From Schmidtea polychroa (lineage: Eukaryota): a DNA stretch of 64,000 nucleotides. Below are positions 6,446 through 62,778 of the stretch, piece by piece (the first letter of the stretch is position 1; each line of letters starts with the position of its first letter). The notes below the pieces were generated by a model that saw nothing but the letters and a program-made list of their open reading frames with translations, was not told the DNA's origin and made no database searches. A program made the position numbers and the translations under genes. Location of the stretch: NCBI GenBank assembly GCA_044892525.1, contig CM097885.1, positions 11,224,001 through 11,288,000 on the forward strand. Direction: 5' to 3'.

Positions 6446-6463
6446 TATTATTCATAGAGGTTT

Positions 6464-7825: not shown

Positions 7826-7958
7826 AATTGAGGACGTCCTCATAATCAATGTGATTACCTTCTATAATCTTTTCGGTCCGATCGACCAGGAAAATTAGGC
7901 TTTCCATAATATTCTTGTTGATGAGTTCTCTTAACATATTTTCCATTAAATTAGACAT
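7826..7958 (-). pseudogene. 5' remnant of Bcl-2-like gene
   Basis: MSNLMENMLRELINKNIMESLIFLVDRTEKIIEGNHIDYEDVLN, homologous to 29770-29903. Confidence 0.75.
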
Positions 7959-8063
7959 TTTTACAATATTTTAAAATATGATGTTTTATTTATACCAATA
8001 CTGTATGATTTTGATTGGTTGATAGACTATAAATGTAAAAGAAAGGTTTTGATTTGATACACC
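7959..8063. promoter_or_regulatory. Bidirectional CCAAT/TATA promoter shared by the Bcl-2-like and glycoprotein genes
   Basis: TATAAATAAA on the minus strand, central GATTGG (CCAAT) and TATAAAT on the plus strand. Same layout at 29904-30007. Confidence 0.55.
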
Positions 8064-8564: not shown

Positions 8565-8589
8565 ATAAATGTATGTTTTGTTGATTTCT

Positions 8590-20448: not shown

Positions 20449-22302
20449 AGTAGGTAGTTAGTAAAATTGTTGCAACTTTTGATTACGCAATTGTTGCAAC
20501 TCAAATTTTTTGCGTTCAGGGATTTTTAGTCCAAAATTTTTTTTATCACACTATAGTGAGGGGGTCTCGATTGATCCTGAGATTTTCAATACAAAAAAAT
20601 TTTTTCAATAGAAATTTGAATTATCATTAAAAAGCCAAGGATTTTTCGAATTAAATTAAGGTGGGTCTCCTTGGTCATGAGAATTTCAATAGAAAAAGGT
20701 GGTCTACAATAAAAAAGCCAAGGATTATTCAGACTGTAGTGAGAGGGTCTCCATGGTCCTAGAATTTACAATCGAAAAAGACGGTCTTCAATAAAAAAGC
20801 ATGGTAATTTAAGGTCTCAGGATATTTTCAATACAAAAAGGTGGTCTACACTAAAAAACAGTGGTAATTTAAGGTCTCAGGATATTTTCAATACAAAAAT
20901 CCGATTATCACTAAAATAGCATGGATTTTTCTAGGTCAATTCAGGTGGGTCTTCTTGGTCCTGAGAATTTCAATAGAAAAAGGTGGTCTACACTATAAAA
21001 CTTGGTAAATTTTTTAAAATAAAGCAAATTATGGGTCTAAAAAATTGATTTACAGTAAATTATGGTCCAAATTTTTAAATTAAAGTAAATAATAGGTCTA
21101 ATAATTGAATTAAAGCAAACAATAGGCTGAAATAAGTAAATTAAGGTCCAAATTTTTGAATTACATTAAATAATAGGTCTAATAATTGAATTAAAGTAAA
21201 TAATGGTTCAAAATTTAAAATTAAAGTTAATTAAGGGTTCAACTAAGTAAATTAAGGTTCAAATTTTAAATTAAAGTAAATCAAGGTCCAAATTTTTAGA
21301 ATTAAAGTAATCAATGGGTTCAAATTTTTATATTAAAGTAAATAATGGTTCAAAATTTAAAATTAAAGTTAATTAAGGGTTCAACTAAGTAAATTAAAGT
21401 CCAAATTTTTAAATTAAAGTAAATAATGGTTCAAATTTTTAATTAAAGTAAATCAAGGTCCAAAATTTTAAATTAAAGTAATGAATTGGCTCAAATAACT
21501 AAATTAAGGTTCTAAAAAATTAAATTAAAGTTAATTAAGGTCCAAATTTTAAAATTAAGTAATCAATGGTAAAAAAATTTTAAATTAAAGTTAAATAAGT
21601 AAATTAAAGTAATAATTTTTAAATAAGTAAATTAAAGTTATGTAATAAGTAAATTAAAGTAATATTTTTAAATTTATTAACAAAAAGTTGAAATAATAGA
21701 AGATGTTTGAGAATTGAAATTTTTTAATGAAAATTTTTTATGAATAATTTTTTAAGTTAATTTTTAATGGAAATTTTTATGAAATATTTTTTAATGATAA
21801 TTTTAGATGGAAATTTTTATGAAATATTTTTCAAAGACAAATTTTAATAATAATTCAACAACAAACCAACAACTTAGTACCAACAACCAGTAACTTACGA
21901 ACATGTATTAACAACCACATACCTACAACTAGTTACTAACAATCAGTTACCTGATACCAAGTACTAACAACCAACTAGCTACCACCTACCAAGTACATAC
22001 AACCAACAACAACCAAGTACTAAGCATTATTAACTAACTACTAAGTACTTACAACCAAAAACAACCAGCTTACAACTAGCTACCACCTACCAAGTACTCA
22101 CAACCATTAACTTACGAACATGTATTAACAACCAAATACCTACAACTAGTTACTAACAACCAGTTACCTGATACCAAGTACCAACAACCACCTACCAAGT
22201 ACTAACAACCAAAAACAACCAGGTACTAAGCATTATCGACCAACTAAATACTAAGTACTAACAACCAAAAACAAGAAAAAACTAGGTACCAGATACCAAC
22301 TA
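20449..22302 (+). repeat. Left arm: AGTAG terminus, then ~60-bp GGTCT repeat, AAATTAAAGT-type repeat and CAACCAAGTACTAA-type repeat blocks
   Basis: Three distinct tandem-repeat blocks, truncated at 22302 where they join the protease intron. Confidence 0.8.
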
Positions 22303-22347
22303 AAAAACAACTTACTCCATGACAACTTTTTGTGTTTCTGTATACAT

Positions 22348-23563
22348 TTATACCAACACTGTTCTATTTGCAGTAATTTGAACTTCATTTTCAAATACTC
22401 CGTATATTATAACATGTACTGGTTCAGTAATAACTTTTGCAAACTTTATATCCAGTCGTAAATTTCCATTTTGAGGTAATTGACTTTGATTTAAATCAAA
22501 ATCAGGGGCTAAAACAAATGTAAAAAATGGGTATTTGCTTTTAAAATCTTCTAGAGTTATTCCGCAATTCAAAATTTTATCTAAATAACCCAGATTTCTA
22601 ACAATACTCTGCATATATGTCGCACAGTAATTGTCATTCTCGAAATCTTGAATATATGTTTCTCTATAATCAGTATTTTTCGACAAAGTCAATGATGTAA
22701 CACCAAAGTTTTTGAAAATTGAGCTGGACGCAGTATATGATCCATTATATTGTGCTTCACTTTGAAATGTTATCAGAATAAAATTAGGCATTCTTCTGTC
22801 ACCAAATATTTGTTCTTTATAGAATGATGAAGCACCTTTAGCAATAGCAAATTGTACAATTTCCTTTGTTTTTAATGGATAAATTGCATGTTTTGAATTA
22901 AGACCCAATTGATGACCTGCTAATACTGAGGGGTCTAGTCGTACTCTTCTCACCAATAATTTTGCATCAACTAATTGACATATTGGTGTAGTAGTTCCAC
23001 TAGTAAGAGATAATGCAGAATCAGACCTTTTCAGTCTAATATGTACATTAACTCCCGGTAGTAAATATTTCGGTTGATCCATAAAATCGAGTTGTAATGA
23101 TGAGCACATGGTGAAAACCTTTGAGCCTTTTACCCACTTTTTTCTTTCATCATCACTACCATAACCCATAGGTGTAAGACATGTATTTTTAGTATCAGAA
23201 TTGTAATTTAAAATAGTTTCTATTAATGCCTTGTGAATGAATGTATTATTTCCGCCGTCAATCTTGATATTATTAAATCCCAACACTGCATCTTTAAAAA
23301 GAGTATGAAACAGGAAATTGTTCGGTATTACATCTGCATTGGCATCCAAAACTTTTCTATCTTTATCTACAACCTTAATCTGAACAGTCAATAAAGTATC
23401 GTTCAAATCTAAATATTTGCGAACCATTAATATAAAACTCGATATCATTTCTACTATCGGTAATTGAATTCATAGGAAAAACTTCCTCAAATGCCCCAAA
23501 TTTTATTACAGCCTAGGGCGACGGTCTATCAAATATACATAATTCAGATTTACCACAAATTAT
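22348..23563 (-). pseudogene. Major capsid protein, copy 2 (start codon lost, frameshift near 23418)
   Basis: Highly similar to 2136-3356. ATG changed to ATA and a 5-nt deletion upstream of YLDLND. Confidence 0.88.
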
Positions 23564-23928
23564 TTTGCAAATATAGTTCCATGTCCTTTCATTCGTTTGT
23601 TTATACGTGATATTCCATGTCTTTTACGTTTTGGAGCTGGAGCTGGAGCTGGAGATTTTTCTTTTTGAAACATACCTGCAACCCCGGGTAAAACTTTCCC
23701 TAATTCAGCTAAAGCATTTGTTTTTAGAGATGGTAATATTTTCTGTTCATTCATAATAACGTCTTTTGCAGTTTTCATACCAAAACTACCAATACGTTTA
23801 AGAATAGGCAATGCAAATCTACCAATTGTTCTCAACCATCCCGATCCGTACTGTTTACCAATAAAATATGGTAATTCACCGCCAGATTGGCTACCACTAT
23901 ACATACTAATAATATCAGAATTAGCCAT
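23560..23928 (-). CDS. Basic core or membrane-active precursor protein, copy 2
   Basis: Near-identical to 3353-3724. Confidence 0.7.
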   Translation of the reverse strand: MANSDIISMYSGSQSGGELPYFIGKQYGSGWLRTIGRFALPILKRIGSFGMKTAKDVIMNEQKILPSLKTNALAELGKVLPGVAGMFQKEKSPAPAPAPKRKRHGISRINKRMKGHGTIFAK

Positions 23929-24964
23929 TTATTTTACGAAAATGTAATGTCAAATGAGTTTTTGAACCTTTTGGAAAGTTTATAAGTTTTCCACTATCAT
24001 CACGAATATTTATTTCTATATTGTTTATACATGAACTTGCTATTGATAAATACATGGGATTATCGATATTTATATTGACAACTTCATCATGTTCATATTT
24101 TCCAATCCATACCGATTTCAAAAGAGGAACACTGGAATCACCAACAATTATGGGTTCGATAATGTTAGTATATATGAACATTTGTTGATGATGTTCTAGT
24201 ATTCTTGGTTTGCGTATACCAGTCGAGTTTTCTCGATATTTTTGCTTATCTAATCCAAGTGAATTTGCCAAATTTTTATCAAATGTAACTTCGCAAATAT
24301 CCTCATTTAAACTGAAGGTAAAAATCAAATCTTTCACAATTTCCAAATTTTTAAATATGTGTGAACAATTGAACTTTAAATATTTAAGTAAATCATCAAG
24401 TTTATCAAAATATAATTCATCAGCAAAGGTAAATGATTCTTCAACTTCATCATTATACGACACAGATATTTTGATTTCTTCTTTCACTATACTGTTTGCT
24501 TCAAATAGATTAAAACGTAATAAATACTCGGTCTCCGTAACAATATTTTTCAACTTATTGCAACCCATTCGTTTGGCATCTTCAATAGTTTCGAATGTTA
24601 TTGTAAATGGTTTAAAATCACAACTGATATTTATTCCATCCTTGTAAAACATATAGCAATGCGAATCTAATATTTGATTCGGAATATGATATGTTTTATC
24701 ATAATTACTGATAACAAAGATACCGCTACATGTTTTCACAATATTCCTTTTGAAATCAATCTTACATTGACTATAAAATGGGAATGTGTTGTACACGAAT
24801 GTAAAATCTTGCAGTGCAACTTCCCAGTCACCATTTAAAGAAATCGGATTCTGGAGATTGACCATAAATTTACTGGCTTGATTGTCTGGATGAATTAATG
24901 GGCAACTATTGCTCGGTAAAATAGTATAAAAATTCACTTTACTAGGTCTTTTGCTGATATCCAT
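23921..24964 (-). CDS. Minor capsid protein (penton-like), intact, with divergent central domain
   Basis: Continuous ORF with FYTILPSNS...WEVAL and IVGDS...RDDSG...LHFRK motifs. Start placed at MDISK. Confidence 0.88.
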   Translation of the reverse strand: MDISKRPSKVNFYTILPSNSCPLIHPDNQASKFMVNLQNPISLNGDWEVALQDFTFVYNTFPFYSQCKIDFKRNIVKTCSGIFVISNYDKTYHIPNQILDSHCYMFYKDGINISCDFKPFTITFETIEDAKRMGCNKLKNIVTETEYLLRFNLFEANSIVKEEIKISVSYNDEVEESFTFADELYFDKLDDLLKYLKFNCSHIFKNLEIVKDLIFTFSLNEDICEVTFDKNLANSLGLDKQKYRENSTGIRKPRILEHHQQMFIYTNIIEPIIVGDSSVPLLKSVWIGKYEHDEVVNINIDNPMYLSIASSCINNIEINIRDDSGKLINFPKGSKTHLTLHFRKING

Positions 24965-25802
24965 GACGGGTTTTGATAACCATACCATTTTACATAGTAT
25001 TGTTTATCCTTACCGACCTTTTTAGTTTTCAATATTTTTTGAATTCTAAATACTTTTGGGGGAGGAATGACTTGTAATTCCTGCTCATAAAATTTCCCTT
25101 GTACAATATTATTATCATTGTCTTTGATGACATACATTACAGGATTCTGTTTAGTATTTATTTTTGAAATTACAAAGACTTCATCACTCCAATTTGTATC
25201 AAAATTTTTAATAAATGGTGATGCACTAATTTTACTAATTCTAACATGGTCACCGACTTTATATTTAGGTTTTGCAATTTTTACAGATTTCTTAGAAGTC
25301 AATGATGTTTTTGATGTAATATCAACCGGTCTCAATCCATTCAGTCCTCGATGTGATGAATGATTATAACTTGTTATTATTTTCGGTAAAGCATTTACCC
25401 ATTTTTTATTACCTTGATGCACGAACAATTTCTTTAATCTATCTCTCAATGTACGATTAAATCTTTCAACATGGGCAGCTTTGTATTGAGAATGTACCGA
25501 GTAGTGATTTATTTTGCAAACCTGCTGTATACATTAATACATGTTAAAATATATTTATTCCCATTGTTAATTTTCGAATAAGGTATCATCTCCATCAAAT
25601 CCATTTGCCATAAATCGTCAATACCAAATGTTTTATACGCTCTTGTTGGAAATCTTTTCCGCATTGGTTTGTTCAAACTGTACGCAAGCTGATCTGATAA
25701 CCACTTCTGGGTTTCTTTTTTCGAATTCGGAACTCTTTTCTTTAATTTTGCCACTCCACCGAAACCGGCATCGTCTTCTGGGTTCGTCCAAATCTTCTCC
25801 AT
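24934..25802 (-). pseudogene. Integrase, copy 2, with a ~262-nt deletion removing the intron and second catalytic Asp
   Basis: Junction at ~25515 joins copy-1 positions 5301 and 5564. Confidence 0.88.
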
Positions 25803-25860
25803 TACAACAAGAAGATTTAAAATTAAATTTAATGTCGGGCAATGAAGGATTAGCACCCAT
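25633..25860 (-). CDS. Small predicted N-myristoylated overlapping ORF, copy 2
   Basis: MGANPS...SSCC...RRR, same length as in copy 1. Confidence 0.5.
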   Translation of the reverse strand: MGANPSLPDIKFNFKSSCCNGEDLDEPRRRCRFRWSGKIKEKSSEFEKRNPEVVIRSACVQFEQTNAEKISNKSV

Positions 25861-25863
25861 TGT

Positions 25864-26388
25864 TTATGATTGATTTCCTACAACTCCACCTAATAATGAT
25901 AATGCCAGAGGTATCAATGCTCCAATAAATCCACCTTGTTGTTTATATATAATTTTCCTCATTTGCTTACGATTTTTATTATTTACTAAAGATAACAATG
26001 GTTTCCTATGTTTGCTCAATAAATGCTTTTTTGATTTAGTGATTTTAATTTTGCCTTTGACTACTTTAAGTATAATATTGAGTAAATCATCGACAACAAA
26101 ATTTGGGAATGATTGCAATATATTCAATCTTTTCATACTCGGGGCTTTTAACAATGCATTAAAAAATGGAAAACTGCGATGATTTTTAACTACTTTTTTA
26201 CTGGTTTTACGGGTTTTACGTTTAGGTTTAGGATTTTTCGAAATAAGATTCATTGCAGAGAAATTTTCAGTTACAAGTTTTTTAGATAGTGTATAACTAG
26301 TTGTTGGTGGAACTTTTGGAACTTTAATACTCTTTCTAATACTTTTTCTTAATTTCCTAATATTTTTCACCCTTGCTTTTAGAAACAT
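25864..26388 (-). CDS. Lys/Arg-rich core protein precursor, copy 2
   Basis: Near-identical to 5912-6445 with a 3-codon in-frame deletion. Confidence 0.7.
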   Translation of the reverse strand: MFLKARVKNIRKLRKSIRKSIKVPKVPPTTSYTLSKKLVTENFSAMNLISKNPKPKRKTRKTSKKVVKNHRSFPFFNALLKAPSMKRLNILQSFPNFVVDDLLNIILKVVKGKIKITKSKKHLLSKHRKPLLSLVNNKNRKQMRKIIYKQQGGFIGALIPLALSLLGGVVGNQS

Positions 26389-26406
26389 TATTATTCATAG
26401 AGGTTT

Positions 26407-27033
26407 TCAACTTTGTTTATAAACCATGGCACCTTTTGGGTTGAAAATATCTGTTTTTACTCGTAAATCATCGGGACATTGTTGCGTGAAATCAAGAAAT
26501 ATATATCCATGAGGTATTTTTGTAGCATCTTGAAATGCACTGATAAGAAAATTACGATTGTTAGGGTATGCTTGACGTGCAAGAAAATCAATCACTGTTG
26601 CATCTTTAGGATTCTCTAAAATAACTAAATATTGTACATTTAAATTATGTGTTCGATGTGCCCCACCTTGATGAAATAGATTTTGTGTTATGAAAATAAC
26701 TGTTACACCGACATGTCTGCTGATCTTTGTAAATAAATTATTAAAATCTTTTTCTTTATTAGCTTCTTGATACAAATCATCGATAATAATGACATCACCT
26801 TTCTTTAATCGCCTGGACCAGTTTTTATCGAATCCCTTTACTATTTTCATGTTTTTTAATTTACAGAAACTTGATTGAGTTAATCCATGTTCTTCATCAG
26901 CACCCCTATGCCAATAAATCCTGTTGAATTTTGATTTGAATAAATTTGATTTTAATAATTTACAAACAAATAATGTTTTTCCACTACCGCTCGGACCAAC
27001 GATTTGGTATACTGCATCATTTCTTAATTCCAT
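26407..27033 (-). CDS. Packaging ATPase, copy 2
   Basis: GPSGSGKT, IIIDD and ITQN motifs. Start at MELRN by comparison with copy 1. Confidence 0.9.
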   Translation of the reverse strand: MELRNDAVYQIVGPSGSGKTLFVCKLLKSNLFKSKFNRIYWHRGADEEHGLTQSSFCKLKNMKIVKGFDKNWSRRLKKGDVIIIDDLYQEANKEKDFNNLFTKISRHVGVTVIFITQNLFHQGGAHRTHNLNVQYLVILENPKDATVIDFLARQAYPNNRNFLISAFQDATKIPHGYIFLDFTQQCPDDLRVKTDIFNPKGAMVYKQS

Positions 27034-27136
27034 TTCAAAAATTTTATAAATATATGTGTATTTATTTATATTCGATGATTTAATGAACTCGTGCTCAATT
27101 TGTATATAAAGACTAATTTTCATAAATGATTTAATA

Positions 27137-27574
27137 ATGTTAGCAAATATAAATTATCGAGGAAATTTTGATGTATCGAATATGAGGTTCCCACCAGGGA
27201 AACCCCAACAAATTATCGATAGAAGAGGGAAATATTCGATAATATTTTTCAAGACTGGTAAATGCAAAATCATGGGATGTAAGAAACCTTTGGATATTAA
27301 TAAATTACAATATCGAATAAATAATATTATAATCCAATCAATTACCGTTACTATGGATATGGGACATAGTATCAATCTTTATAACATGTCGAAAAAATGT
27401 GATTGTATGTTTGAACCGGAATTGTTTCCGGCACTAAGACTATTAAAATATAACCCTATATGTGTCAACGTGTTTGCTAGTGGAAAGGTTGTCATGTTGG
27501 GGTTGAGAAATTTGGAGTATAGAGAATTTGTTGACAATGTTCGAAATGAGATAATTTCATTGGTCGATTTCTAA
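27137..27574 (+). CDS. TBP-like protein, copy 2
   Basis: Intact 145 aa with five substitutions versus copy 1. Confidence 0.85.
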   Translation: MLANINYRGNFDVSNMRFPPGKPQQIIDRRGKYSIIFFKTGKCKIMGCKKPLDINKLQYRINNIIIQSITVTMDMGHSINLYNMSKKCDCMFEPELFPALRLLKYNPICVNVFASGKVVMLGLRNLEYREFVDNVRNEIISLVDF

Positions 27575-27648
27575 TTGGTTAATTTTTAATTGGTTATTGT
27601 TTGATTTAAACAAACGGTTTTTTGTTTAGGATTCATTTATTCAACAAC

Positions 27649-28065
27649 ATGTACAAAATACCAAGCGCAGCAAATTTAATGAAAGATATTGACGACTACG
27701 GTAAATTTAAAATTTTTATTTTCACATTTTTTATATTTATTATTTTAGAAAAATATTTAGAAGTAATGCTCAATAGGATAAAATATTATTATCCTCAAAT
27801 TGCAGAAATAATCAAGGATAGAGAACCAGAAATCATTCCGGATCTCATATTCTATTCCACTCAAATTAGAATCATGGAGGTATTCCATCAATTTTTATGG
27901 GATATCAAGATTAATAGAACCATGAAACAAATGGAGCTGGAGTATCAATGTATGTTCGGATGTTCATGCTGTGCCGATCGATATCGGCGATATGTCGAAT
28001 GGGAGTTAGTGAAAACTCTGAGAAGGTTTCACTACTCCCGGATTGTTGATTTAGGTTATCAATAA
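27649..28065 (+). CDS. Unknown accessory protein with Cys cluster (CMFGCSCC); intron 27701-27748
   Basis: ATG at 27649. The 48-nt GTAAAT...TTTAG intron is also present in the copy 1 remnant. AATAAA overlaps the stop. Confidence 0.65.
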   Translation: MYKIPSAANLMKDIDDYGKFKIFIFTFFIFIILEKYLEVMLNRIKYYYPQIAEIIKDREPEIIPDLIFYSTQIRIMEVFHQFLWDIKINRTMKQMELEYQCMFGCSCCADRYRRYVEWELVKTLRRFHYSRIVDLGYQ

Positions 28066-28270
28066 ATGTATTTTTGTTTTTATTGTGATTTTATATTTGA
28101 AATAATAATATATAATAATAGTAATAATAATAATAATATAAATAGAAATAGTAATAATAGAAATAATAATAATAGAAATAGAAATAATATAAATAGTAAT
28201 AATAAAACATTAATAATAAAACATTAATAATAATAATATTTCACATTAATAGAACATAAATGCAGCAATA

Positions 28271-28381
28271 ATGCAAATGACATGCAAATTTAAACAAAGA
28301 CCTGCTATAATCTGATTGGTTGATAGGCATGAGTCAAAGGTATAAAAACCCTGTAACATTTCAATTTAATCATTATTCACT
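28271..28381 (+). promoter_or_regulatory. Compact Pol II promoter: two octamers, CCAAT, AP-1 site, TATA
   Basis: ATGCAAAT at 28271 and 28282, GATTGG at ~28314, TGAGTCA at ~28330 and TATAAAA at 28341, ~40 nt before the ATG at 28382. Confidence 0.65.
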
Positions 28382-28873
28382 ATGACCAAGAAAATTTCAT
28401 GCACCGAAAAACCAAAAGAAATGGTACAACCAGTTCAAATGTTCCACAACTACAAAATGTATTTTTTAAAAGAAGAAATCAATATAAAATTGGTGTCACC
28501 GATCAAGCTAATTCCAACTAAATTTCAATTCTTATCCGGCACGCTTTCAATGATTGATGTCAAAACTATTGATAATGTTTTTAAACGGATAGATTCGAAT
28601 CTATCTTGTAATCAACATGCATGGTTCAACAATAGATATGCAAGATTTTATGATGCTTTTGATGAAATCAGTTTCAAAGAAAATGAAAATTGGTATATAA
28701 CAATTGCAATCCAGGGATATAAAGTTGATAATAATGATGTATATTCTCCTATTTGGAAAATTATGTCTGCTAGACTTTCACAAATATTTATAATATATTT
28801 AATAAATGTATTAGTCATAATTGTTTTTCTCTTTATTAATTGCAACATAAATGCAAATGACATGCAAATTTAA
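28382..28873 (+). CDS. Unknown accessory protein, possibly OB-fold/ssDNA-binding; true 3' end uncertain
   Basis: ORF downstream of a clear promoter, with a beta-rich aromatic segment WYITIAIQGYK...SPIWKI. The fold suggestion is a weak inference. Confidence 0.5.
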   Translation: MTKKISCTEKPKEMVQPVQMFHNYKMYFLKEEINIKLVSPIKLIPTKFQFLSGTLSMIDVKTIDNVFKRIDSNLSCNQHAWFNNRYARFYDAFDEISFKENENWYITIAIQGYKVDNNDVYSPIWKIMSARLSQIFIIYLINVLVIIVFLFINCNINANDMQI

Positions 28874-28922
28874 CAAAGAAAATCTATAAACAAACTTATA
28901 ATATAGTTTTAAAGTGATAAAA

Positions 28923-29322
28923 ATGACTGCGGAAAAAGGTTAACATGATTAATTAATTACCGAATTATTTATTATTTAGAATTTGTAATCAACTTTTTGT
29001 TGGAAAAGTTAGCAGAAATATCTGGTGTGAAAATTGAGGACATATTATTTATTACAAATGCCTTAAATATCGGCTGGATAGTTGAGAGTCAAGATCAGGA
29101 TTTGATGATGAGGGAGAAACTCAAGAAATTGATGAGGAAGAAACTCAAGAAATTGATGAGGAAATCTATGAACCTATAGATGAACCTATTGATGAACCTA
29201 TAGAGGAACCTATAGAGGAACCTAACGATGAATCTAAAGATAATATTACGACTGATTGTATTGATCATGTCGTTGAAAATATAATGAAATGTGGAGATGA
29301 CGACTGCGAATGTGTTAATTAA
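28923..29322 (+). pseudogene. Acidic repeat-containing accessory gene (intron 28939-28979; frameshift near 29100)
   Basis: MTAEK|EFVINFLLEK..., then in a shifted frame ETQEIDEE x2, (D/E)EPI repeats and a Cys-rich end CIDH...KCGDDDCECVN*. Confidence 0.6.
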
Positions 29323-29392
29323 TAAATTTTAGTTAATTAGTGTTTGTAAATTTATTTAAAATTTTATTTAAAAATCAAACAAAATAACTATA

Positions 29393-29903
29393 TTAATTTT
29401 TATTTAAAAATCGCGATAAAGCATACAAAATAGCAACACCTGTTGCAAGTTTTATATAGTTTTTAAATTTCATTTTCTGTTCATCTATTTCCTTCGCATT
29501 TCTGGCGAGTTGATTCAGTACGCCCCATCCGCCATTGTCTTCAATCCATGGTTGAAACTTTGACTTGATTATCTAGAAAATAATTATTAATAAAATATAG
29601 ATTATAAAAGTATTACTTCTTGAGACCACTGATAATAATGTTCAGAGTCCCATAAACTTTTTTCGATTATGATCTTCATATAAGCGGTATTCGAGTCCAC
29701 TTCATCTTATCGTCACATAGGCAGTTAAAAATCCTATGAAAATAGAATTTTTTCGTTTCGAGGCAATCGGAATTGAGCACATCCTCATAATCAATATGAT
29801 TTCCTTCGATAATCTTTTCGGTCCGATCGATCAGGAAACTGAGGCTTTCCATAATCTTCTTGTTAATAACTTGGCTTAAAAGATTTTCCATAAAATGAGA
29901 CAT
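29393..29903 (-). pseudogene. Viral Bcl-2-family gene (BH3-BH1-BH2-TM); intron 29573-29616; frameshift near 29688
   Basis: BH3-like IMESLSFLIDRTE, BH1-like FHRIFNCLCDDKMKWTRI, BH2 FQPWIEDNGGW (exon 2) and tail anchor YIKLATGVAILYALSRFLNKN*. Confidence 0.8.
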
Positions 29904-30007
29904 TTCTACAATAATTAAAATATGATGTTTTATTTATACTAATACCGTATGATTTTGATTGGTTAATAGACTATAAATGTAAAAGAAAAGTTTTGATTTG
30001 ATACACC

Positions 30008-30508
30008 ATGAAAACTATATTCATATTGTTAATTATTATAACGAGTGTGTGCTCACACAATACAACAATAACCGTGGAGTCTTTTAATAAATCAATATGT
30101 GTTTGTCCGAATACAGCCAAGTTGATGGATATTTTATATATTCTCGACAAACCAAAATGGTCAAAGCATCCAGGAAAAAGAATATCTCAAAGATTGGAGA
30201 ATTTAGAAAACAGTTATGAACTATCATTTTAATATATACAAAATATAAAAATTAAATTGATTGATCATATTGAAGTTTTCAATAACTCTATTGTTGAAAA
30301 TAAAAAGAATATGAAAATTATTGATAAGAAGCATGATTATTTGTTAAAAAAGATCGAATTATTATTAAGAGAACTTCAAATAATCAAAGGATCAATAGAA
30401 TATCTGAAAATCAATTCAACGTTACCAATTTCAAACAATATTGCTGCGAATACTAGTACATCAATATTTAGTTTACCTTTGTTAATTTTACATTATTTTA
30501 TTGTTTAA
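30008..30508 (+). pseudogene. Secreted or GPI-anchored glycoprotein, copy 2, with premature stop at 30230-30232
   Basis: Near-identical to 8064-8564; GAA changed to TAA. Confidence 0.8.
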
Positions 30509-30534
30509 ATAAATGTATGTTTTGTTGATTTGTT

Positions 30535-30643
30535 TAATAATACCCTTGTGAGATGTTGAGCGTGAGCAGTACCCTTTTGAGCATTACCCATAGGTGGACA
30601 AAATATTTTGTCGGATAAACTCGGAGTATATAGATTAATACTC

Positions 30644-30716
<73 letters not shown>

Positions 30717-30750
30717 TTATTATAATAATAATAATAATAATATTAATAAT

Positions 30751-30799
<49 letters not shown>

Positions 30800-31362
30800 T
30801 TTTTAAAAATAATAATAATTATATATCATTGATCATGGTCTTGGGAAAATGTTAATAACTTTGCCAATATTAAAGATGGGGGGGGTCAAAACATCCTGTC
30901 GAATAAACTCAGAGTATATATAATAAAACTGATCAACAATAAGTATTTATTGAATGCGATTTTTACATTACAATAATAAGTCAGTAGTAATAATTTAAAA
31001 GAAGAATGTTTTGTAAATTAGAATTCATTGGTATTTCATTGTAATTTTTAATTATCATCAATTCCACGTAGTGATGAGTTGACAATTATTCAATTTTGAT
31101 GAAAATCAACATTTTTGTTAAACGTAGACATTTTGAAAAGGTTTTTCTACTGATTGTAATTAAAATTATTATAGAAGCTGTATAAAAAAAATTAATTTAA
31201 AAAAAATACATTTCATAAAATACAATAAAGGATATTTAGTTGATTGTAAGTAGTTAGTTGTAAGTATGTGGTTGTTTGAGAGTTAGTACGTGGTATCATG
31301 TTGAAAGCATTTGTTAGTACCTAGTTAAAAATATTTAGTAACCGATTGTTTGTAACTGTTGA

Positions 31363-33201: not shown

Positions 33202-36200
33202 ATGCTTGAAATTAGAAATTTATTGTTCAATATTATTGACAAACTAGCTGTTCAAAAGCTTTTTGATTACGCTCCTGAGTTTATTGAAACTTTAAATAAA
33301 AATCGTTCTGTGTTTTTGAACATATTAGATCATGATGTGAATTATTAATTTATTACATATTTATTTATCTAAACTTAATAGGCTTCAAGTGTAAATGATC
33401 GAAATTTAGTATTAAATTCTTATAGAGATCCAATTCAAATTCCAGGTTTCCAACAAAAAATAACACTATCTCAAGATTTCATCCAGGAAACAATAATTAT
33501 AAGCGATTTATTTAAGTTAAATGAAATAACATCTGTTGAATTATTACTATTCGGTTAAATTATATATTTTAGTGTACTCTTTTTTTACTCTAGTTTTACT
33601 CCTTAGGTGAAAGTGAGCGAACATCAAATCCTGACATGACTCGTGGATTATTGGCAGTAAATCAATATTATAATTCACAAAAAACAATAGTAGAAGCTCT
33701 GCGAAATCTACTAAAATTATTTTTAACAATCACAACAGACAATGCAAAAGCAGTGGAAATTGTAAACTTCACTCAAGCCTTTTGCGATAGTTTATTTCAA
33801 CATGGCCTATTTCCGAAATTGATCGGTTTATTAAAAAATCTAGACATAAACAAAGAAATCGAATTACTGGAATCTCAACGAGCTCTAGGAACAGCTAGGC
33901 ACAGGCGTCGGTTTTTTTTAATTTTTCAAAGCATTAAAGAAACACTGGCTGAATGTATTTTGTTACGAAGCTTCAAATGTCCACTTAATACGGCTGATAC
34001 AAAATTATTAATCGAATTTATGCGGGAATTTTATAAGGAAAGCAACAAAGAAATCAAGGTAATTGTTTTGCTTAATATTTGAATAGTTTAGTGAATTATT
34101 AATGTAGATAATTAATTATGAACATTTATTAGGGCAATTATTATATAATTATATATTTCATCAGTAGCGGTGGCTGTAGCAGGCGGGTGGAGCGCGTGGG
34201 GGGGGGTGAGGGTAACACGGGCTGTCCTATTTATTATCCTACATATTAATACGTATTTAATGAATGAAATGCTTCAATCAATGAGAATAACATTGCCAAA
34301 TGGAATGCCATCCGAATTATTCAGGGCGTAATTATCGATATATTGCTGTAATCATACAGAAACATTCATTATAAATTCAACCAATCATCGATAGCAAATC
34401 AAAAAACCAGTAAATTTATTGGATATAATCACTGCTTGTCATTAACCGCCTCTATAACTATTGCGCTTAGCTTTGGGCGTCGTTGTGACCCGATCCATGA
34501 GCCGGTGACAATTCCGTGGGCATGGCAACGCCTGATATAGCGCTAGTGATCATACACGCTAATGCATGCATGCATATCTGGAATATATCTAATATGGATC
34601 ATTTTGGCATCTCAATCAATGCCATCGGTGCCAATAATCACCACAGGATTCCAATCGATTGCATTTTATCGATCAATCGCTACCAGTTTCCCCGTTGTTC
34701 ATTTCCCAGCGGAAATTCCCCTCCAAACTATATAAAATGCGTTTAATCTATCGTTGACTGCTTTTTACACTATTTTATCGATATTTTATCTATTTTCTAT
34801 GTGACAAAATATTAATATTTAAATTTCCATCACCAAAAACGAAAACGATCAAAGATGATTCCTACTGATTAACCGCCTAGTTCCCGATATTGCTTATTTC
34901 TACCTTTTAATGATTGATTTTTCATCTTATTAATATTGTTTGATAACATTATATTTGAGTAATTGTAATCAATAATGTGATTTACTCAATAAATCGATTC
35001 GTAAATTTCATTTGAATAAATGTTACAGAATGAAGAGAATGAAACAATTGCTTTGCGGGAAGTTAAAATCGTAGATAAATGCTTTGTATATTTGCTAGTC
35101 AGTTTGATGGATTCAATTAATCCAGTCATTAATGAAAACAACGCGACGAATTATTCACAGGATTGTTGGTTTCATTCATGGCGTTTTTTATTTGTTGAAT
35201 TCCATCGGTTTAGGCCTCACGCATCCTTTCTTTACTGATGACGAATACACGAGAAATATTAGCGATCTGCTTTCGAAGAATATTAATGGGAATAATGATA
35301 ACGAAATGAAAGAATATGAAATGAAAAATATCGTTCAGAATTTTGATCAAGTTATATTTCTGGCATGGATTATTTCCCTACAGAAGGTGTCGCATTTGAA
35401 ACAGGAGAAATGCATTAACAGTTGTCAAATGACCACCAATTTCGGAGATTATGACGATATTTTGGACTGTGACCAATCGAAACTCGAATCTGGAAATCTC
35501 TATGAAATCTTTTCATTTTTGACCGTAATAACAGGAATTGAAGAATTCCATGAGCAGGTAAACGGATTTCAACGCGGGAAAGATTTCTGACTTTGTTTTA
35601 CAGAACATTTGGATAAAATGCTTTCATGATTTGGTCACCGATTTCATTATCTATATGCCGAAAATGCTGAAGGATTTAAAAACGGAAAGTTTAAGAACTG
35701 CATCGAATGTTACTCATTTCTCCTCATTGATGGGATTAATTGGAAATGTGCATGGGCCTCCTGAGAGATTGTTTGAATCTTCAATTCCATTTAATAATGA
35801 ATACTTGGAAAGCTTAACATTGGAATTCTGGGCTCCGCAAGACATGACAGGTACCGATTTATCGGCATCATTGATATCGGCTGGCAATTACAAGAATTTG
35901 CCTATCAAATCCAATTGTTCATATCGACAGTCGATGCTTTTTAAATTCATTCGAGACTGTGGAGATTTGATCGATAATCCAGAGTTTCTGTTGAATTTCC
36001 TCTTCATGTTGAAAGGGTTGTGCATAAATGAACGCGTGGCGGTTTATATTTACAATATGTTCAACAGCAATCTGATTGGTAAGCGGTTTCTGTTTTCTCT
36101 TTATAATTTCCATTTCCATATGAAATATTCTCATTTTTGGGAATTAAATTTCATCAACAATAACTCATTTAGTAAGCACTTTTATCTGTCACGCGGTGTT

Positions 36201-39200
36201 ACAGAGGCGCTGAAAGCGGTTTAAAGGTAGTCAAGGTCACTTAGGTAGGTTACTGTTAGAAATGTAGGTCAAGGTCATTAAAGTAAGTTAGAGATATTGG
36301 TTAAAGTTGTTAAAAGTAAGTCAAGGTTATTTGAAATAGGTCAAGGTCATTAAAGTAAGTTACTGTTAGAAATATCGGTGAAGGTCATTATAAGTTAGTC
36401 AAAGTCATTCAAAAAAGTCACAGCGAGGATCGAGTATTGATAAAAGTTGCATATACATATCAAATTATCAGGTTTCATAAATATGGCTAATAAATTATAT
36501 AAGTTTCTCCTTCACTGATCTAATAGCTGAAATATTTCATTCCAGGGCATCATAATAAGCTTTCTTGGGAATATTTTTCAACTTGCATGCTTCACCATGC
36601 CAAGTTTTACCACTCGAACCCTCACAGAAATCAAGTAATGGATCCGATGGAACTTGCAGGATTATTAGTTGTACTGCAGCTCACAAGGCAAGTGACTAAA
36701 ATGGTATTGGTTCTTTGGTGACATTTTCTACTGATTATTAACCCGGTAATTGAACAGAGTCCTAAAGTGTGTGAAATGATGGTGAATAACGACTCGCTGA
36801 TGATAGTTCAAAACTTGGTCTTGCTGTTGTCTTGTGGTGTACCAAAATCACTGAAAGCCGAGCTGTTTAATTGTTTGGCTGTGTTTTGTCATAACGTTTT
36901 AGTAGCCAAATCAATCTGGCAAGCACTCGAATCTAACAAAATCATAAGCAACTCACATGAAATCCATTCTTGTAGTATTCAAATTGAACTTGGGGAAAAT
37001 GAGCCTAAATTAGAAGAATTCGATATTACTAGAGCATTTCTCAATTTCCTATTAGCAATTGCTCCTCATATCTTGTGTGATATATCGTATTTGGATCAGT
37101 CTATGTTGTCATATGATAAATTGAATGTCTCCATTATTTCTGCTCCTTCTCATCACGCGGTTGTCGAGAATCTTACTTCTGTTGTCCAGTTGATGATGGA
37201 GAATGTTTTTCTCAAACATTCTATGAGGACCTATAGAAATATCTACGAAAAGGTGTGATTTACTTTATATTGATTTATTGATATCATTTATTATTAATAT
37301 TGATTTTAATATGATTATATTGATTTCTAAAAGTAATTAATTTTTCGATAAATAATAAAATTTCTTCCATATTCAACAAATATTATCGAATTCTGATTTT
37401 TTGACCTTGTATAAAGAATCAATGAAATTTTCTTTATTTTCTCACTTTTCAGTTTGCAATTTGTGAAAGCTTTTTGAAGTTGAGTAGTAAATGCGTCGAG
37501 TTATTCCTTGCTCAGAGCGGTAACACAAAAAACAGCAAATCTAAAATCTCCTGGTGTCAATATGATCCAGGATTTTACATTATCAATCAATTATTGTCGG
37601 AATCTCCCTTTTTCAAAACCATCGTTAGCATTATTGAAAATGGATTCCTACAAATCAATGAAACCCTAAATAATGTTACCTTTGGTCAGAAATCATTCAG
37701 CGAGCGAACTGTTGAGTTGTTGGGAAATTCCATATATCTTGCCATGGATTTAGTTTCAACCGTTTTGAAGCATGAATCATTTCTAGTTGAATTAAACACA
37801 AAATTTAAGTAGCTCATTTTTGGTTTTTTATCGATTTCCAATGACGATATTTTGCAGTAGTCAATATAAAATCGATAATTATCGCTCCAACATTCGGTCT
37901 GTGAAATCAAGAAATGTCATACCGCAGGAACTTAGCCAATTGTTGATCACAACTGGTGGATCTCAATCTTTCCTACCGAATCTCATTAAGTATATCAGCA
38001 TTGCTGATGAAAATGAGAAAATCGCAAGGAAAGCTTTAACGATTTTCAATTATTGTATTGAAATAGTTCAGCCTCATAGCAATTTGATGTTGCTGTTGAC
38101 CAATCAGAATGTAAATGAATTGATTTATCCCAATCATCAGCGGTTTATTGTTGTTACCATACATTAGGCAGTATATGTGGACATTTTGCCCCTGATGGTC
38201 AATTGCATTGATAAATATGGAGATATTGATTCGACTTTCGTTGATTGCGTCGAAAGGGGGAAAATATCTCAATTGTTTTTCAATGATTATGTTTCTCACT
38301 CTCCAAGGACTTTGGTGCTGAAGATATTGATCAATTGCCTCCAACAGCCAACTCCGAATCTCGGTCAATATCTGATGGGGTTTTCTTGTGCTAGCACGTT
38401 CTCAGTCAAACGGACATCATTGCAAGAAGCAGGAGTTGGAGATTTCCCGAAAACGTGTTTGCATTCATTGTTGAATCTCATTCAACGATTGGTTACTGGA
38501 ATCGTTTCAAATCCATTATTGAAGGATAATGATATCCCTGTGGAATGTCTCCCGGAATTAGCTGCCGATATGATCGATATCTGCCTTGGATATCGCATTC
38601 TTTATCTTTTAGCCAGTAACTCATTCACATCAATGGCTGTCTTGAGGTTCATTAGGAGCAATTACCAGTTCATTTTCAAGCAAATTGATTTGCTGGCATT
38701 TACAACTGCTCGATTAAATAATCCTGGTAAGTTATTATCATTATTGATTATTGATTAATTTAACGATATTTGAGTGTTGTTTAAATATTTTTGAGATCTC
38801 ACCGCACCTTTCTAAACATATTTAAACATCAAATGTTTCAATATATGAAAACAAATTAAAATTTTTTGGTCATTATCGATTTTCAATGTTTTTGATTTTT
38901 GAGATTCGCATTGATTTACCAGATCTTTTACAAAACACATTTATGAATCTGACAGAGAATTTAATTCTCTATGAAATGATATAAAAATATTTTAGAAGTT
39001 TTCATTTTTAATCTATTTTAATCAATACTTTGTAATGATTTATTCGATAAATTGATTATGAAATTGCAATATTATATATTGATTAATAAATACATTATAT
39101 TGATCTATATAAACAATTTTAAATGTGACGCGAGGCCTCGATATCAATTTGCCGGCATAAACACGGAATTCATATATATTTACTCTCATTTTAAATCTAG

Positions 39201-44038: not shown

Positions 44039-44479
44039 AAATTTTTGATTAATAAATGTTTAATAAATTTGTTCTTTTTAATAATCTATTGCAAATATTT
44101 TTATTAAATAATTATTTATATTTTTACTTCTATTTTTGGAATTAGAATAAATTATGTTTGCGGAAACCCATATATTATTTAGAGGAGTCATCTTTTGAAA
44201 ATGCATATTTTTCTCTAAAAATATATTTTTGAGTTGTTCTTTTGAATTTTCAACCTAAATAATTCAAATTTTTCGTTTCTATTTAGTTGTTTAGAAATTT
44301 GACCAATAAAGAATTTTTTTGAAGTAAAATTAACTAAGTATAAATAAATTTATACAAACTTCTTTATAACCTTTGTTTAAAAATTCATTTTCAATTTACA
44401 TTTTGAAAATGTAATATTCAAGAAATATTTCTTTTTACTATTTATTTATACTATTATAATTGTTAATGATTTTTAAACT

Positions 44480-45158
44480 ATATATATTTTATTTTATTAT
44501 AAATGTTATAATTTCATTTCTAGACTCATTGGAAAGTTGCTGTTTCTTGATATGGTATCAATAACAACAACAACAGCTCAACGAGTGCCGATAAATATAA
44601 CTATATGATCACAGCTGATTCCAGCCTTCATCCAATCCAACGATTGCATAAAATTCAACAAATTAAAATGGAATTCGATCAACCAAAATCAGTCAATCAA
44701 TCAAATAACGATATAATTTTCTTAATATCTCTACAAGATCCAATCGGCATTTGAGGTGACATTTGTTGATATGTTTATCAATAATGAATCATTGATTACT
44801 GTTTTATTTCCAGATTTATTCCGATGAGAATGAGAGCTCATTCTTGAGAATCTTGGTTCACCGAATGATGAGGATTCTTAAACTCGTTTAAAAATTTTTG
44901 ATTAATAAATGTTTAATAAATTAGTTCTTTTTATTTTATTTGTTCTTTTTAATAATCTATTGCAAATATTTTTATTAAATAATTATTTATATGTTTACTT
45001 CTATTTTTGGAATTAGAATAAATTATGTTTGCTGAAACTCAGATATTATTTAGCGGAGTCATCTTTTGAAAATGCATATTTTTCTGTTGAATTTTCAACC
45101 TAAATAATTCAAAATTTTCGTTTCTATTTAGTTGTTTAAAAATTTGACCAATAAAAAA
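44480..45158 (+). pseudogene. NUP205: Diverged tandem duplicate of the last two Nup205 exons and 3' flank
   Basis: Copy of ~43590-44310 with small deletions and substitutions. Confidence 0.85.
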
Positions 45159-62367: not shown

Positions 62368-62651
62368 TCTATTAACCAATCAAAATCATACGGTATTAGT
62401 ATAAATAAAACATCATATTTTAATTATTGTAGAAATGTCTCATTTTATGGAAAATCTTTTAAGCCAAGTTATTAACAAGAAGATTATGGAAAGCCTCAGT
62501 TTCCTGATCGATCGGACCGAAAAGATTATCAAAGGAAATCATATTGATTATGAGGATGTGCTCAATTCCGATTGCCTCGAAACGAAAAAATTCTATTTTC
62601 ATAGGATTTTTAACTGCCTATGTGACGATGAGATGAAGTGGACTCGAATAC
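62368..62651 (+). pseudogene. Inverted 5' fragment of the Bcl-2-like gene with its promoter (ORF from 62435)
   Basis: Reverse complement of ~29688-29970; breaks at WTRI into (AAT)n. Confidence 0.85.

Positions 62652-62778
<127 letters not shown>

What the first reader, a model, noticed from the sequence alone, without database searches (positions are those of the whole stretch)
29393..29903. Hidden spliced viral Bcl-2 homologue in the Polinton
Seen: correcting one frameshift (~29688) and removing a 44-nt intron (29573-29616) yields ...IMESLSFLIDRTE...FHRIFNCLCDDKMKWTRI/AYMKIIIEKSLWDSEHYYQWSQE|IIKSKFQPWIEDNGGWGVLNQL...YIKLATGVAILYALSRFLNKN*. Known: the order BH3, BH1, BH2 (WIxxNGGW), C-terminal TM defines multi-domain Bcl-2 proteins, and adenovirus E1B-19K is a viral analogue. 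The NWGR groove motif is altered to KWTR. Remnants at 7826-7958 and 62435-62651 show it belongs to the family. Inference: an apoptosis modulator, supporting a true infectious cycle.
Basis: partly seen in the sequence, partly recalled or inferred. Interest (0 to 1): 0.88.

Follow-up and report, generated by a model that had tools for sequence, protein, structure and literature searches.

The report
Broken Bcl-2 gene in a Polinton
A virus-like Polinton/Maverick transposon present in about two thousand copies in this animal genome carries its own two-exon cell-death regulator gene of the Bcl-2 family, and the copy in this window is a broken one; such genes have been noted before in related animal viruses.

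Summary
On the minus strand at 29393-29903 lie two exons split by a 44-nt GT..AG intron (29573-29616). The window copy is broken by a 10-nt deletion at 29686/29687 that 29 of 29 other aligned genomic copies lack. 19 of 30 sampled copies are intact.

The gene is a Bcl-2 family member:
- Sister subfamilies have introns whose length is a multiple of three, so they can be read through. 5 of 6 pass Pfam PF00452's own cut-off (32.4-34.6 bits); the sixth scores 31.0.
- A profile of the element-borne proteins finds only Bcl-2 family chains among the best 60 PDB sequences (top E 7e-7).
- dN/dS between subfamilies is 0.03-0.17.

The gene sits about 0.8 kb inside one terminal repeat of a 16-kb Polinton (pPolB, integrase, A32 ATPase, adenain).

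Not shown: splicing by RNA (no reads could be laid), the fold (AlphaFold pLDDT 53), and any anti-apoptotic activity.

Bcl2 homologues in adintoviruses/Polintons are already in print (PMC8502044), and planarian Burro retroelements carry a BCL2-like motif (PMC6431247). This is therefore a new member of a known kind.

The parts
29617..29903 (-). Exon 1 of the Bcl-2-like gene (ATG at 29901-29903). It covers helices up to and beyond BH1 (KWTR). It is broken in this copy by a 10-nt deletion at 29686/29687, so it is 287 nt instead of the 297 nt of intact copies.
   Evidence: Intact exon 1 of another copy gives PF00452 E=0.017 on its own, and the six best PDB sequences are all Bcl-2-related protein A1.
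29573..29616 (-). 44-nt phase-0 intron, GTAAT...TTCTAG, with stop codons in the exon-1 frame.
   Evidence: GT..AG and the 44-nt length are kept in 30 of 30 aligned copies. Sister subfamilies have 45, 48 and 54 nt, and one copy has 30 nt, at the same codon boundary. An intronless relative (L065) is continuous across the junction. No RNA evidence.
29393..29572 (-). Exon 2: BH2 motif (W-I-E-D-N-G-G-W in this copy), a charged linker, a hydrophobic tail anchor, and the stop codon at 29393-29395.
   Evidence: It has no start codon at its head and is under purifying selection in this frame (pN/pS 0.15-0.39 between subfamilies), while the other two frames hold 3-8 stops.
29931..29962 (-). Putative Pol II promoter: CCAAT box (29958-29962) and TATAAATA (29931-29938), 28-35 nt upstream of the ATG.
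   Evidence: TATAAATA is present in 30 of 30 copies. TATAAA at -33 to -37 plus CAACCAATCA is present in all three subfamilies despite saturated synonymous divergence in the coding part. Function inferred from consensus only.
22301..30878 (.). Partial Polinton copy 'B' that holds the gene. It lacks pPolB and most of the protease, and its outer terminal repeat is not fully recognisable.
   Evidence: Colinear at 93.7-96% with a full 16.1-kb reference copy. Pfam: integrase + chromo 24937-25533, A32-type ATPase 26410-27153, TBP-like 27110-27571.
7826..8018 (-). 5' 193 nt of the same gene in Polinton copy 'A' (about 971-9014). An internal deletion of about 2 kb removed the rest of the gene.
   Evidence: A 5563-7828 matches B 25515-27774, and A 7826-8590 matches B 29771-30534.
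62376..62656 (+). 5' 282 nt of the same gene in a rearranged element. It breaks within 3 nt of the site of copy B's deletion and runs into a (TAA)n repeat.

Best explanation
The stretch is a pseudogenised copy of a conserved accessory gene of a Polinton/Maverick (adintovirus-like) element family.

In intact copies the gene has its own CCAAT/TATA promoter and two exons of 297 nt and 177 nt plus stop, joined by removal of a 44-nt phase-0 intron. The product is a tail-anchored protein of about 158 residues that belongs to the Bcl-2 family (BH1 as KWTR, canonical BH2, C-terminal membrane anchor). The gene lies about 0.8 kb inside one terminal inverted repeat of the 16-kb element and is read inward.

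Shown here: family membership by sequence, conservation under purifying selection across three subfamilies and a deeply divergent lineage, and the break in the window copy.

Inferred: the intron is spliced by the host spliceosome. Also inferred is that the protein inserts into the mitochondrial outer membrane or ER and, like every characterised virus-encoded Bcl-2 homologue (my recollection), holds back Bax/Bak-type death effectors so that the cell survives while the element is expressed or replicated. I put about 0.55 on the anti-death direction. The window copy itself, and its identical twin, cannot make this protein.
For: - Break: 10-nt deletion versus 29 of 29 other copies. 19 of 30 sampled copies are intact (the sample is biased towards the best-scoring copies).
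- Pfam PF00452: intact exon 1 alone scores 16.1 bits, E 0.017. Read-through of natural in-frame-intron copies scores 32.4-34.6 bits (E 3e-8 to 1.4e-7), over the 31.4-bit cut-off in 5 of 6; the sixth (L064, window's subfamily) scores 31.0. The own-genome scan with PF00452 finds these copies beside the host's Bcl-2 genes.
- PDB: the profile of element-borne proteins matches 149 distinct sequences at E<=1, and the best 60 listed are all Bcl-2 family (Bcl-xL top, 7.3e-7), aligned from BH1 through BH2.
- Protein-language-model look-alikes: 18 of 30 hits fall in Bcl-2 clusters, first hit 0.93.
- hhalign against host Bcl-2 paralogues: E 1.1e-4, probability 56%.
- blastp of the spliced product against a host-like PF00452 gene (L060): E about 4e-17, 27-28% identity.
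- Selection: dN/dS 0.03-0.17 between subfamilies with dS>1. Exon 2 alone gives 0.15-0.39.
- Intron: conserved GT..AG at one codon boundary, with lengths of 30/44/45/48/54 nt. The intronless homologue L065 is continuous across the junction.
- Element: pPolB PF03175 E 2.5e-16, rve integrase, A32 ATPase, Peptidase_C5, and terminal repeats of 573-618 nt at 89.6% identity.
- The same gene sits next to a TBP-like gene in a divergent Polinton lineage (pPolB 46-65% identical).
Against: - No RNA evidence for transcription or splicing could be obtained.
- The window's own pieces give no Pfam hit, and the closest read-through copy of the window's subfamily is 0.4 bits under Pfam's cut-off.
- Both AlphaFold models are of low confidence (pLDDT 54 and 53). 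Foldseek gives no match at E<=0.001; the listed rows are all Bcl-2 family, but only at E 0.035-0.33 and TM 0.33-0.48.
- The BH1 glycine, which I recall as important for partner binding in Bcl-2, is threonine here, so groove function may differ.
- The direction of action (anti- or pro-death) is not indicated by any test. Bax chains lead the weak Foldseek list, while Bcl-xL leads the sequence-profile list.
- No spliced full-length protein is on record in the searched protein collections.
Confidence: 0.8

Rival explanations
1. The protein is a pro-death, Bax/Bak-like pore former that the element uses to kill or lyse the cell, for example for release of particles, rather than a survival factor.
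For: It is a multi-BH, tail-anchored protein, an architecture that effectors share. The weak Foldseek list is led by BAX chains. A BAX-like cluster appears among the language-model look-alikes (rank 6, score 0.88).
Against: The sequence profile scores Bcl-xL, Bcl-2 and A1 higher than Bax (32.9 against 27.6 bits). Exon 1 alone aligns best to A1, including its degenerate BH3 region. All characterised viral Bcl-2 homologues that I recall are protective. Roughly 2,000 genomic copies of a killer gene with a working promoter, many of them intact, would be costly to the host.
Confidence: 0.12
2. The protein has a Bcl-2 fold but is used for something other than apoptosis control. Examples I recall are damping of innate immune signalling, as in poxvirus Bcl-2-like proteins, or control of autophagy.
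For: BH1 departs from the canonical NWGR (KWTR). Poxviral Bcl-2-like clusters appear among the look-alikes.
Against: Unlike most poxviral Bcl-2-like proteins, as I recall them, it keeps recognisable BH1 and BH2 motifs, passes PF00452 itself, and keeps a tail anchor.
Confidence: 0.1
3. The two parts are not spliced. Only the exon-1 product of about 103 residues is made, or nothing is made and the frames are relics.
For: The only database proteins found are unspliced exon-1 open frames from short ENA contigs. No RNA data.
Against: Exon 2 has no start codon at its head yet is kept open and under purifying selection in exactly the frame that continues the Bcl-2 domain. The Pfam alignment runs from BH1 in exon 1 to BH2 in exon 2. 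An intronless homologue has the two parts fused. dN/dS of 0.03-0.17 excludes a relic for the family as a whole.
Confidence: 0.05

Closest known systems
Bcl2 homologues of adintoviruses / animal Polintons (Starrett et al. 2021, Virus Evol., PMC8502044; passages read)
   Same: An accessory gene of the Bcl-2 family carried by an animal element with PolB, integrase and adenovirus-like virion genes. The same paper also lists TBP-like genes on such genomes, and one lies next to this gene here.
   Different: The paper gives one sentence and refers to supplementary figures that I could not see. It does not say which hosts carry the gene, whether any are flatworms, or whether any copy is spliced. Here the gene has a short intron, about 2,000 genomic copies and measured purifying selection. 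Relatedness to those adintovirus genes was not tested, because no sequences were in hand.
BCL2-like motif in the polyprotein of planarian Burro giant Gypsy-like retroelements (Arkhipova & Yushenova 2019, PMC6431247, passages read, citing Grohme et al. 2018)
   Same: A Bcl-2-like domain carried by a high-copy mobile element. The own-genome PF00452 scan finds many matches of about 29 bits inside open frames of 1,000-3,000 residues. These fit that description, but I did not fetch them.
   Different: There it is a domain inside a giant retroelement polyprotein. Here it is a stand-alone, tail-anchored, two-exon gene of a DNA element. Kinship between the two was not tested.
Cellular multi-domain Bcl-2 proteins (Bcl-xL, Bcl-2, A1/Bfl-1, Bax; Pfam PF00452)
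   Same: The order of BH1, BH2 and tail anchor, W and R of BH1, the W...GGW of BH2, and the overall length.
   Different: BH1 reads KWTR, not NWGR, and there is no BH4 hit. The intron lies 8 codons before the first W of BH2 rather than directly after the BH2 GGW. The host genes' open frames stop 8-13 codons after the GGW, which fits the family's conserved intron as I recall it.
Adenovirus E1B-19K (Pfam PF01691)
   Same: A survival factor of a virus of the same realm as Polintons; a functional analogue. A Preplasmiviricota-rich cluster with E1B-19K/Bcl-2 labels is the first language-model look-alike of the sister-lineage protein L065 (score 0.93; a lead only).
   Different: No PF01691 match was listed for any of the seven proteins at E<=1. 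E1B-19K has no recognisable BH1/BH2 by Pfam.
Host-like gene L060 (G000:C1:268544203-268544481, PF00452 46.7 bits)
   Same: The closest non-Polinton relative found: 27-28% identity, blastp E about 4e-17 to the spliced Polinton product and 41% identity to the intronless L065 protein. BH1 reads RWSR.
   Different: It appears as a single row in the own-genome PF00452 scan. Its open frame ends 10 codons after GGW, as in the host paralogues. No Polinton genes were detected within its 3.3-kb locus. Whether it is the source, or a domesticated copy, is open.

Membership tests
Bcl-2 family (Pfam PF00452) | Score at or above Pfam's gathering cut-off (31.4 bits) | tested here: met
   Met for 5 of 6 natural read-through copies of sister subfamilies (32.4-34.6 bits) and for the intronless relative L065 (32.7). 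L064, the window's own subfamily, scores 31.0, just under. The intron-coded insert costs score in all six. The window's broken pieces give 0 hits, and intact exon 1 alone gives 16.1 bits.
Bcl-2 family (Pfam PF00452) | BH1 motif (canonical N-W-G-R; motif recalled) | tested here: inconclusive
   W and R are kept, while N is K and G is T (KWTR) in all Polinton subfamilies. Relatives read CWSK (L065) and RWSR (L060), and host paralogues read NWGR, NWVK or YWAK.
Bcl-2 family (Pfam PF00452) | BH2 motif W-x(3-4)-G-G-W | tested here: met
   W-I-E-(A/D)-N-G-G-W in exon 2 of all subfamilies. It aligns with the host paralogues' BH2 and with Bcl-xL's in the PDB alignment.
Bcl-2 family (Pfam PF00452) | C-terminal hydrophobic tail anchor flanked by basic residues | tested here: met
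   The best 15-residue window is at exon-2 residues 42-56 of 59, Kyte-Doolittle mean 1.63, with K/R/N on both sides. Sequence level only.
Bcl-2 family (Pfam PF00452) | Eight- to nine-helix bundle around a central hairpin | tested here: inconclusive
   AlphaFold2 on a 17-row alignment that included host Bcl-2 paralogues: nine helices but pLDDT 53, pTM 0.35. Foldseek against the PDB: 0 matches at E<=0.001; all listed rows are Bcl-2 family at E 0.035-0.33.
Bcl-2 family (Pfam PF00452) | Binds BH3 helices and controls Bax/Bak-dependent membrane permeabilisation | not testable with these tools
   Needs a binding or cell-death assay.
Polinton / Maverick (adintovirus-like) element | [quoted passage not shown] | tested here: met
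   PF03175 E 2.5e-16 in the full reference copy (L044:1369-2790). Not present in either window copy: copy A is cut by the window start and copy B is truncated.
Polinton / Maverick (adintovirus-like) element | Retrovirus-like (rve) integrase | tested here: met
   PF00665 E 1.5e-5 plus Chromo at 4723-5925. rve_3 plus Chromo at 24937-25533. PF00665 E 8e-6 in the reference copy. All are under Pfam's cut-off but consistent with one another.
Polinton / Maverick (adintovirus-like) element | A32/FtsK-type packaging ATPase and adenovirus-type cysteine protease | tested here: met
   Pox_A32 at 30.4 and 27.3 bits, over the cut-off of 22.8. Peptidase_C5 at 26.8 and 27.8 bits, over the cut-off of 21.3.
Polinton / Maverick (adintovirus-like) element | Double jelly-roll major capsid protein and penton protein | not tested
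   The 426-residue and neighbouring open frames between integrase and protease gave no Pfam hit. No fold was attempted.
Polinton / Maverick (adintovirus-like) element | Terminal inverted repeats | tested here: met
   573-618 nt at 89.6% identity at the two ends of the 16.1-kb reference copy. In the window only the inner part is recognisable, up to 30878.

The most novel reading that the evidence does not exclude
The Polinton clade of this animal acquired a Bcl-2 gene long ago and has kept it, together with its own TBP-like transcription factor, as a core host-control module. It is found in at least two lineages whose polymerases are only 46-65% identical. There has also been gene flow between this viral gene and the host's apoptosis toolkit: the single-copy host-like gene L060, the closest relative, would be either the donor or a domesticated viral copy. 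With hundreds of intact, promoter-bearing copies, the elements could collectively shift the death threshold of the host's cells. This would matter in an animal whose tissue turnover depends on regulated cell death.
Probability: 0.2. Interest if true: 0.6.

Novelty: new member of a known kind. Interest (0 to 1): 0.4.

Why it matters
Virus-encoded Bcl-2 proteins mark viruses that must keep an animal cell alive while they replicate. A selected, promoter-bearing Bcl-2 gene in a young, high-copy Polinton therefore supports the view that these elements behave, or recently behaved, as viruses rather than as simple cut-and-paste transposons.

It also adds a second, independent class of mobile element, beside the Burro retroelements, that carries cell-death regulators in the same kind of genome. 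It gives a concrete, easily cloned candidate for testing how mobile elements interfere with apoptosis in an invertebrate.

For annotation, it shows that Polinton accessory genes can hide behind very short introns that prokaryote-style ORF calling misses. All database entries found were unspliced exon-1 fragments.

Tried and rejected
- Pfam on the window's three broken pieces: 0 families.
I worked with searches and fetched stretches instead.
- Protein collection searches:
  - Exon 1 near-length: only a 103-residue ENA fragment.
  - Exon 2 'longer': 53 candidates, none scored.
  - Profile A1: 3 ENA fragments among 2,212 candidates.
  - All-against-all representatives: 1 protein, 61% identical.
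  - The cluster look-up gave no names.
  - So no spliced full-length product and no named relative is on record there.
- RNA: no RNA holder was listed for the stretch. Expression and splicing are therefore untested.
The single-protein scan gave 4 pattern matches, none confirmed.
- Alignment A2 (exon pieces as separate rows) was dropped, because a profile built from it loses the exon-2 columns (101 of 159 columns).
- Ideas rejected:
  - A programmed frameshift: the shift is private to this copy and its twin.
  - A host gene trapped between elements: the gene holds the same place inside the terminal repeat in independent copies.
  - A coding frame on the plus strand: selection and Pfam matches are in the minus frames.

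Full report
**What is in the window**

On the minus strand three open pieces lie head to tail: 29676-29933, 29602-29706 and 29393-29572. The first starts with an ATG at 29901-29903. The second overlaps it in another frame. The third begins directly after a 44-nt stretch (29573-29616) that starts GT and ends AG on the minus strand.

**Copies elsewhere in the genome**

The genome is 781 Mb, about 28% G+C in this window. Searching it with the first and third pieces gave 150 scored matches each, out of 2,145 and 1,912 first-look candidates. Nearly all were at 86-100% identity.

I aligned the gene region of 30 distinct copies, the window's included.
- The window copy lacks 10 nt at 29686/29687 that all 29 others have. 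This removes three codons and shifts the frame.
- The only other copy with this defect is a 100% identical twin 40,871 bases downstream, outside the window.
- All 30 copies carry the 44-nt GT..AG stretch.
- After its removal, 19 of 30 copies have an ATG, an open 297- or 294-nt exon 1 and an open 59-codon exon 2. This sample consists of the best-scoring copies, so it overstates the intact share.

The window copy is thus a pseudogene of an otherwise well-kept two-exon gene.

**Is it a Bcl-2 gene?**

- The window's broken pieces give nothing in Pfam.
- Intact exon 1 from another copy gives only PF00452 (Bcl-2), at 16.1 bits, E 0.017. Its six best PDB sequences by phmmer are all Bcl-2-related protein A1 (E 0.08-0.2), aligned in register over the BH1 motif.
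- The decisive material came from scanning the animal's own genome with PF00452. Beside the host's Bcl-2 genes (46-68 bits), many repeated matches covered profile positions 6-100 with one TAG inside.
- I fetched eight of these matches. Seven were copies of this same gene by blastn, at 73-97.5% identity. They belong to three subfamilies whose intron at the same codon boundary is 45 nt, 48-54 nt or, in one copy of the window's subfamily, 30 nt. Because these lengths are multiples of three, the natural DNA can be read through by reference, with the acceptor TAG as X.
- Of six such proteins, five pass Pfam's own cut-off of 31.4 bits (32.4-34.6 bits, E 2.9e-8 to 1.4e-7). The sixth scores 31.0. All carry the intron-coded insert inside the domain.
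- A profile of the element-borne proteins matched 149 distinct PDB sequences at E<=1. The best 60 listed are all Bcl-xL, Bcl-2, A1 or Bax, with the top at 7.3e-7. The alignment runs from BH1 through BH2 into the tail.
- Language-model look-alikes are Bcl-2 clusters: 18 of 30 hits, first hit 0.93.
- hhalign against five host paralogues gives E 1.1e-4 at 56% probability.

Family membership by sequence is therefore established. The caveat is that the window's own subfamily sits right at Pfam's line when the intron is left in.

**The fold was not established**

AlphaFold2 gave pLDDT 54 for exon 1 alone. It gave pLDDT 53, with nine helices, for a read-through copy on a 17-row alignment that included host paralogues. 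Foldseek found nothing at E<=0.001. Every listed row was a Bcl-2 family chain, but at E 0.035-0.33 and TM 0.33-0.48, and sequence feeds into that score.

**Is the intron real?**

No RNA test was possible. The comparative case is good:
- The splice signals sit at one codon boundary (phase 0) in three subfamilies that are saturated at synonymous sites.
- The intron length varies freely (30, 44, 45, 48, 54 nt), and the exon-1 frame runs into a stop inside every intron examined.
- Exon 2 has no start codon at its head, yet it stays open in exactly one frame. Its pN/pS is 0.15-0.39, and the other two frames hold 3-8 stops.
- Pfam's alignment continues from exon 1 into exon 2.
- A relative without the intron (L065) is continuous across the junction.
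- Candidate GT..AG introns of similar size, by my reading about 49 and 58 nt, can be picked out by eye between neighbouring open frames of the host Nup192/205 gene in the same window. I did not verify them.
- Earlier notes of this scan report short introns in the polymerase gene of Polintons of this genome. I did not check these.

**Selection and signals**

Between subfamilies dN/dS is 0.03-0.17 with dS above 1. Within subfamilies, where differences mostly postdate insertion, it is 0.27-0.75.

A CCAAT box and TATAAATA 33-37 nt before the ATG are kept in all three subfamilies and in 30 of 30 copies. An AATAAA overlaps the last codons.

**The element**

- Pfam on the window's long frames finds the following:
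  - Adenovirus-type protease at 1724-2194 and 62810-63277.
  - Integrase with chromodomain at 4723-5925 and 24937-25533.
  - A32-type ATPase at 6467-7132 and 26410-27153.
  - A TBP-like gene at 7163-7624 and 27110-27571.
- A full reference copy elsewhere is 16.1 kb, with terminal inverted repeats of 573-618 nt at 89.6% identity. It carries a protein-primed PolB, PF03175 at E 2.5e-16.
- In the reference copy the Bcl-2-like gene starts about 0.8 kb inside one repeat and is read inward.
- The window's copy B (22301-30878) lacks the polymerase and most of the protease.
- Copy A (about 971-9014) has an internal deletion of about 2 kb that leaves only the first 193 nt of the gene (7826-8018).
- A rearranged piece at 62376-62656 holds the first 282 nt.

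**Depth of the association**

The intronless 144-residue relative L065 scores 32.7 bits on PF00452. It appears as at least eight similar 152-residue open frames. It lies between a polymerase gene that is 46-65% identical to the reference element's and a TBP-like gene that is 57% identical, in a different gene order. The Bcl-2 gene is therefore shared by deeply divergent Polinton lineages of this genome.

The nearest relative outside the elements is L060, which appears as a single row in the own-genome PF00452 scan (46.7 bits).
- It is 27-28% identical to the spliced Polinton product (blastp E about 4e-17) and 41% identical to L065.
- Its open frame ends ten codons after the GGW of BH2, as in the host paralogues.
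- That position fits the intron conserved in cellular Bcl-2 genes, as I recall it. The Polinton gene lacks that intron; its own intron lies eight codons before the first W of BH2.

**How it most likely works**

Shown: a selected, promoter-bearing, tail-anchored Bcl-2 family protein encoded by a virus-like element.

Inferred: it is spliced, inserted into the mitochondrial outer membrane or ER by its tail, and restrains the host's Bax/Bak-type effectors so that the cell survives expression or replication of the element. I put about 0.55 on that direction, about 0.12 on a pro-death role, and about 0.1 on a non-apoptotic use of the fold. The change of the BH1 glycine to threonine leaves open that its groove binds differently.

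**What is known**

- Starrett et al. [quoted passage not shown] The supplementary figures were not seen.
- Arkhipova and Yushenova 2019 report a BCL2-like motif in planarian Burro retroelements (PMC6431247, passages read). The many matches of about 29 bits inside frames of 1,000-3,000 residues fit that description, but I did not fetch them.
- A 2026 preprint notes Maverick expansions in planarians without mention of Bcl (passages read).
- Full-text searches:
  - 'Polinton' with 'Bcl-2' gave three papers. I opened only PMC6431247; from their titles, the other two concern a sea-anemone and a cichlid transcriptome.
  - 'adintovirus' with 'Bcl-2' gave none.
  - 'adintovirus' with 'apoptosis' gave two, unrelated by their titles and abstract starts.
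  - 'Maverick', 'Polinton' and 'BCL2' gave only the adintovirus paper, its preprint and the review holding all three terms among the 12 listed.

Several features of this genome recall a planarian flatworm: the AT-richness, the four chromosome-sized contigs, and the Burro-like frames. That is my inference only.

**Verdict**

The interpretation as a spliced Bcl-2 homologue of a Polinton is supported. The window copy is dead, but the family's gene is alive in many other copies. It is a new, well-documented member of a kind already noted in print.

Noticed in passing
window 7163-7624 (+) and 27110-27571 (+); L043:2331-2693 (-); L065:2094-2501 (+): Every Polinton copy examined carries a TBP-like gene (PF00352, E 1e-14 to 2e-15) close to the Bcl-2-like gene. 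The Bcl-2 gene has a conserved TATA box. An element-encoded TATA-binding protein may drive the element's own promoters. TBP-like genes are listed for related viruses in PMC8502044.
   Followed up: partly
window 62610-62700 (+) compared with 29650-29725 (-): The 282-nt gene fragment at 62376-62656 ends within 3 nt of the point where copy B has its 10-nt deletion, and continues as a (TAA)n run. This makes two breaks at one site within one local cluster of rearranged elements.
   Followed up: partly
window 21001-22302 = 55769-57070 and 22301-23129 = 63172-64000 (100% identity): A recent segmental duplication carries copy B and its flank. The second copy holds about 6.1 kb extra (57070-63172) of rearranged element ends. 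The twin of the Bcl-2 pseudogene lies 40,871 bases downstream, outside the window.
   Followed up: partly
window 33594-47609 (+): A host nucleoporin Nup192/205 gene is spread over many short exons. Its last Pfam-matching exon is present twice (41258-41905 and 46962-47609, both profile positions 1440-1610), i.e. a local duplication of about 5.7 kb.
   Followed up: no
G000:C4:89.95-90.83 Mb (L049-L055): The best PF00452 matches in the genome (68 bits) form a cluster of seven near-identical copies in two forms, with open frames of 167 and 199 residues. This is a tandemly amplified canonical Bcl-2 gene.
   Followed up: no
L044:1369-2790: The Polinton polymerase frame also matches Endonuclease_7 (PF02945, 24.9 bits, cut-off 23.6) just upstream of the PolB domain.
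   Followed up: no
window 29086-29322 (+): A small, very acidic open frame with tandem D/E-P-I-E repeats and a Cys-rich end lies tail to tail with the Bcl-2-like gene inside the element. No family match was sought.
   Followed up: no
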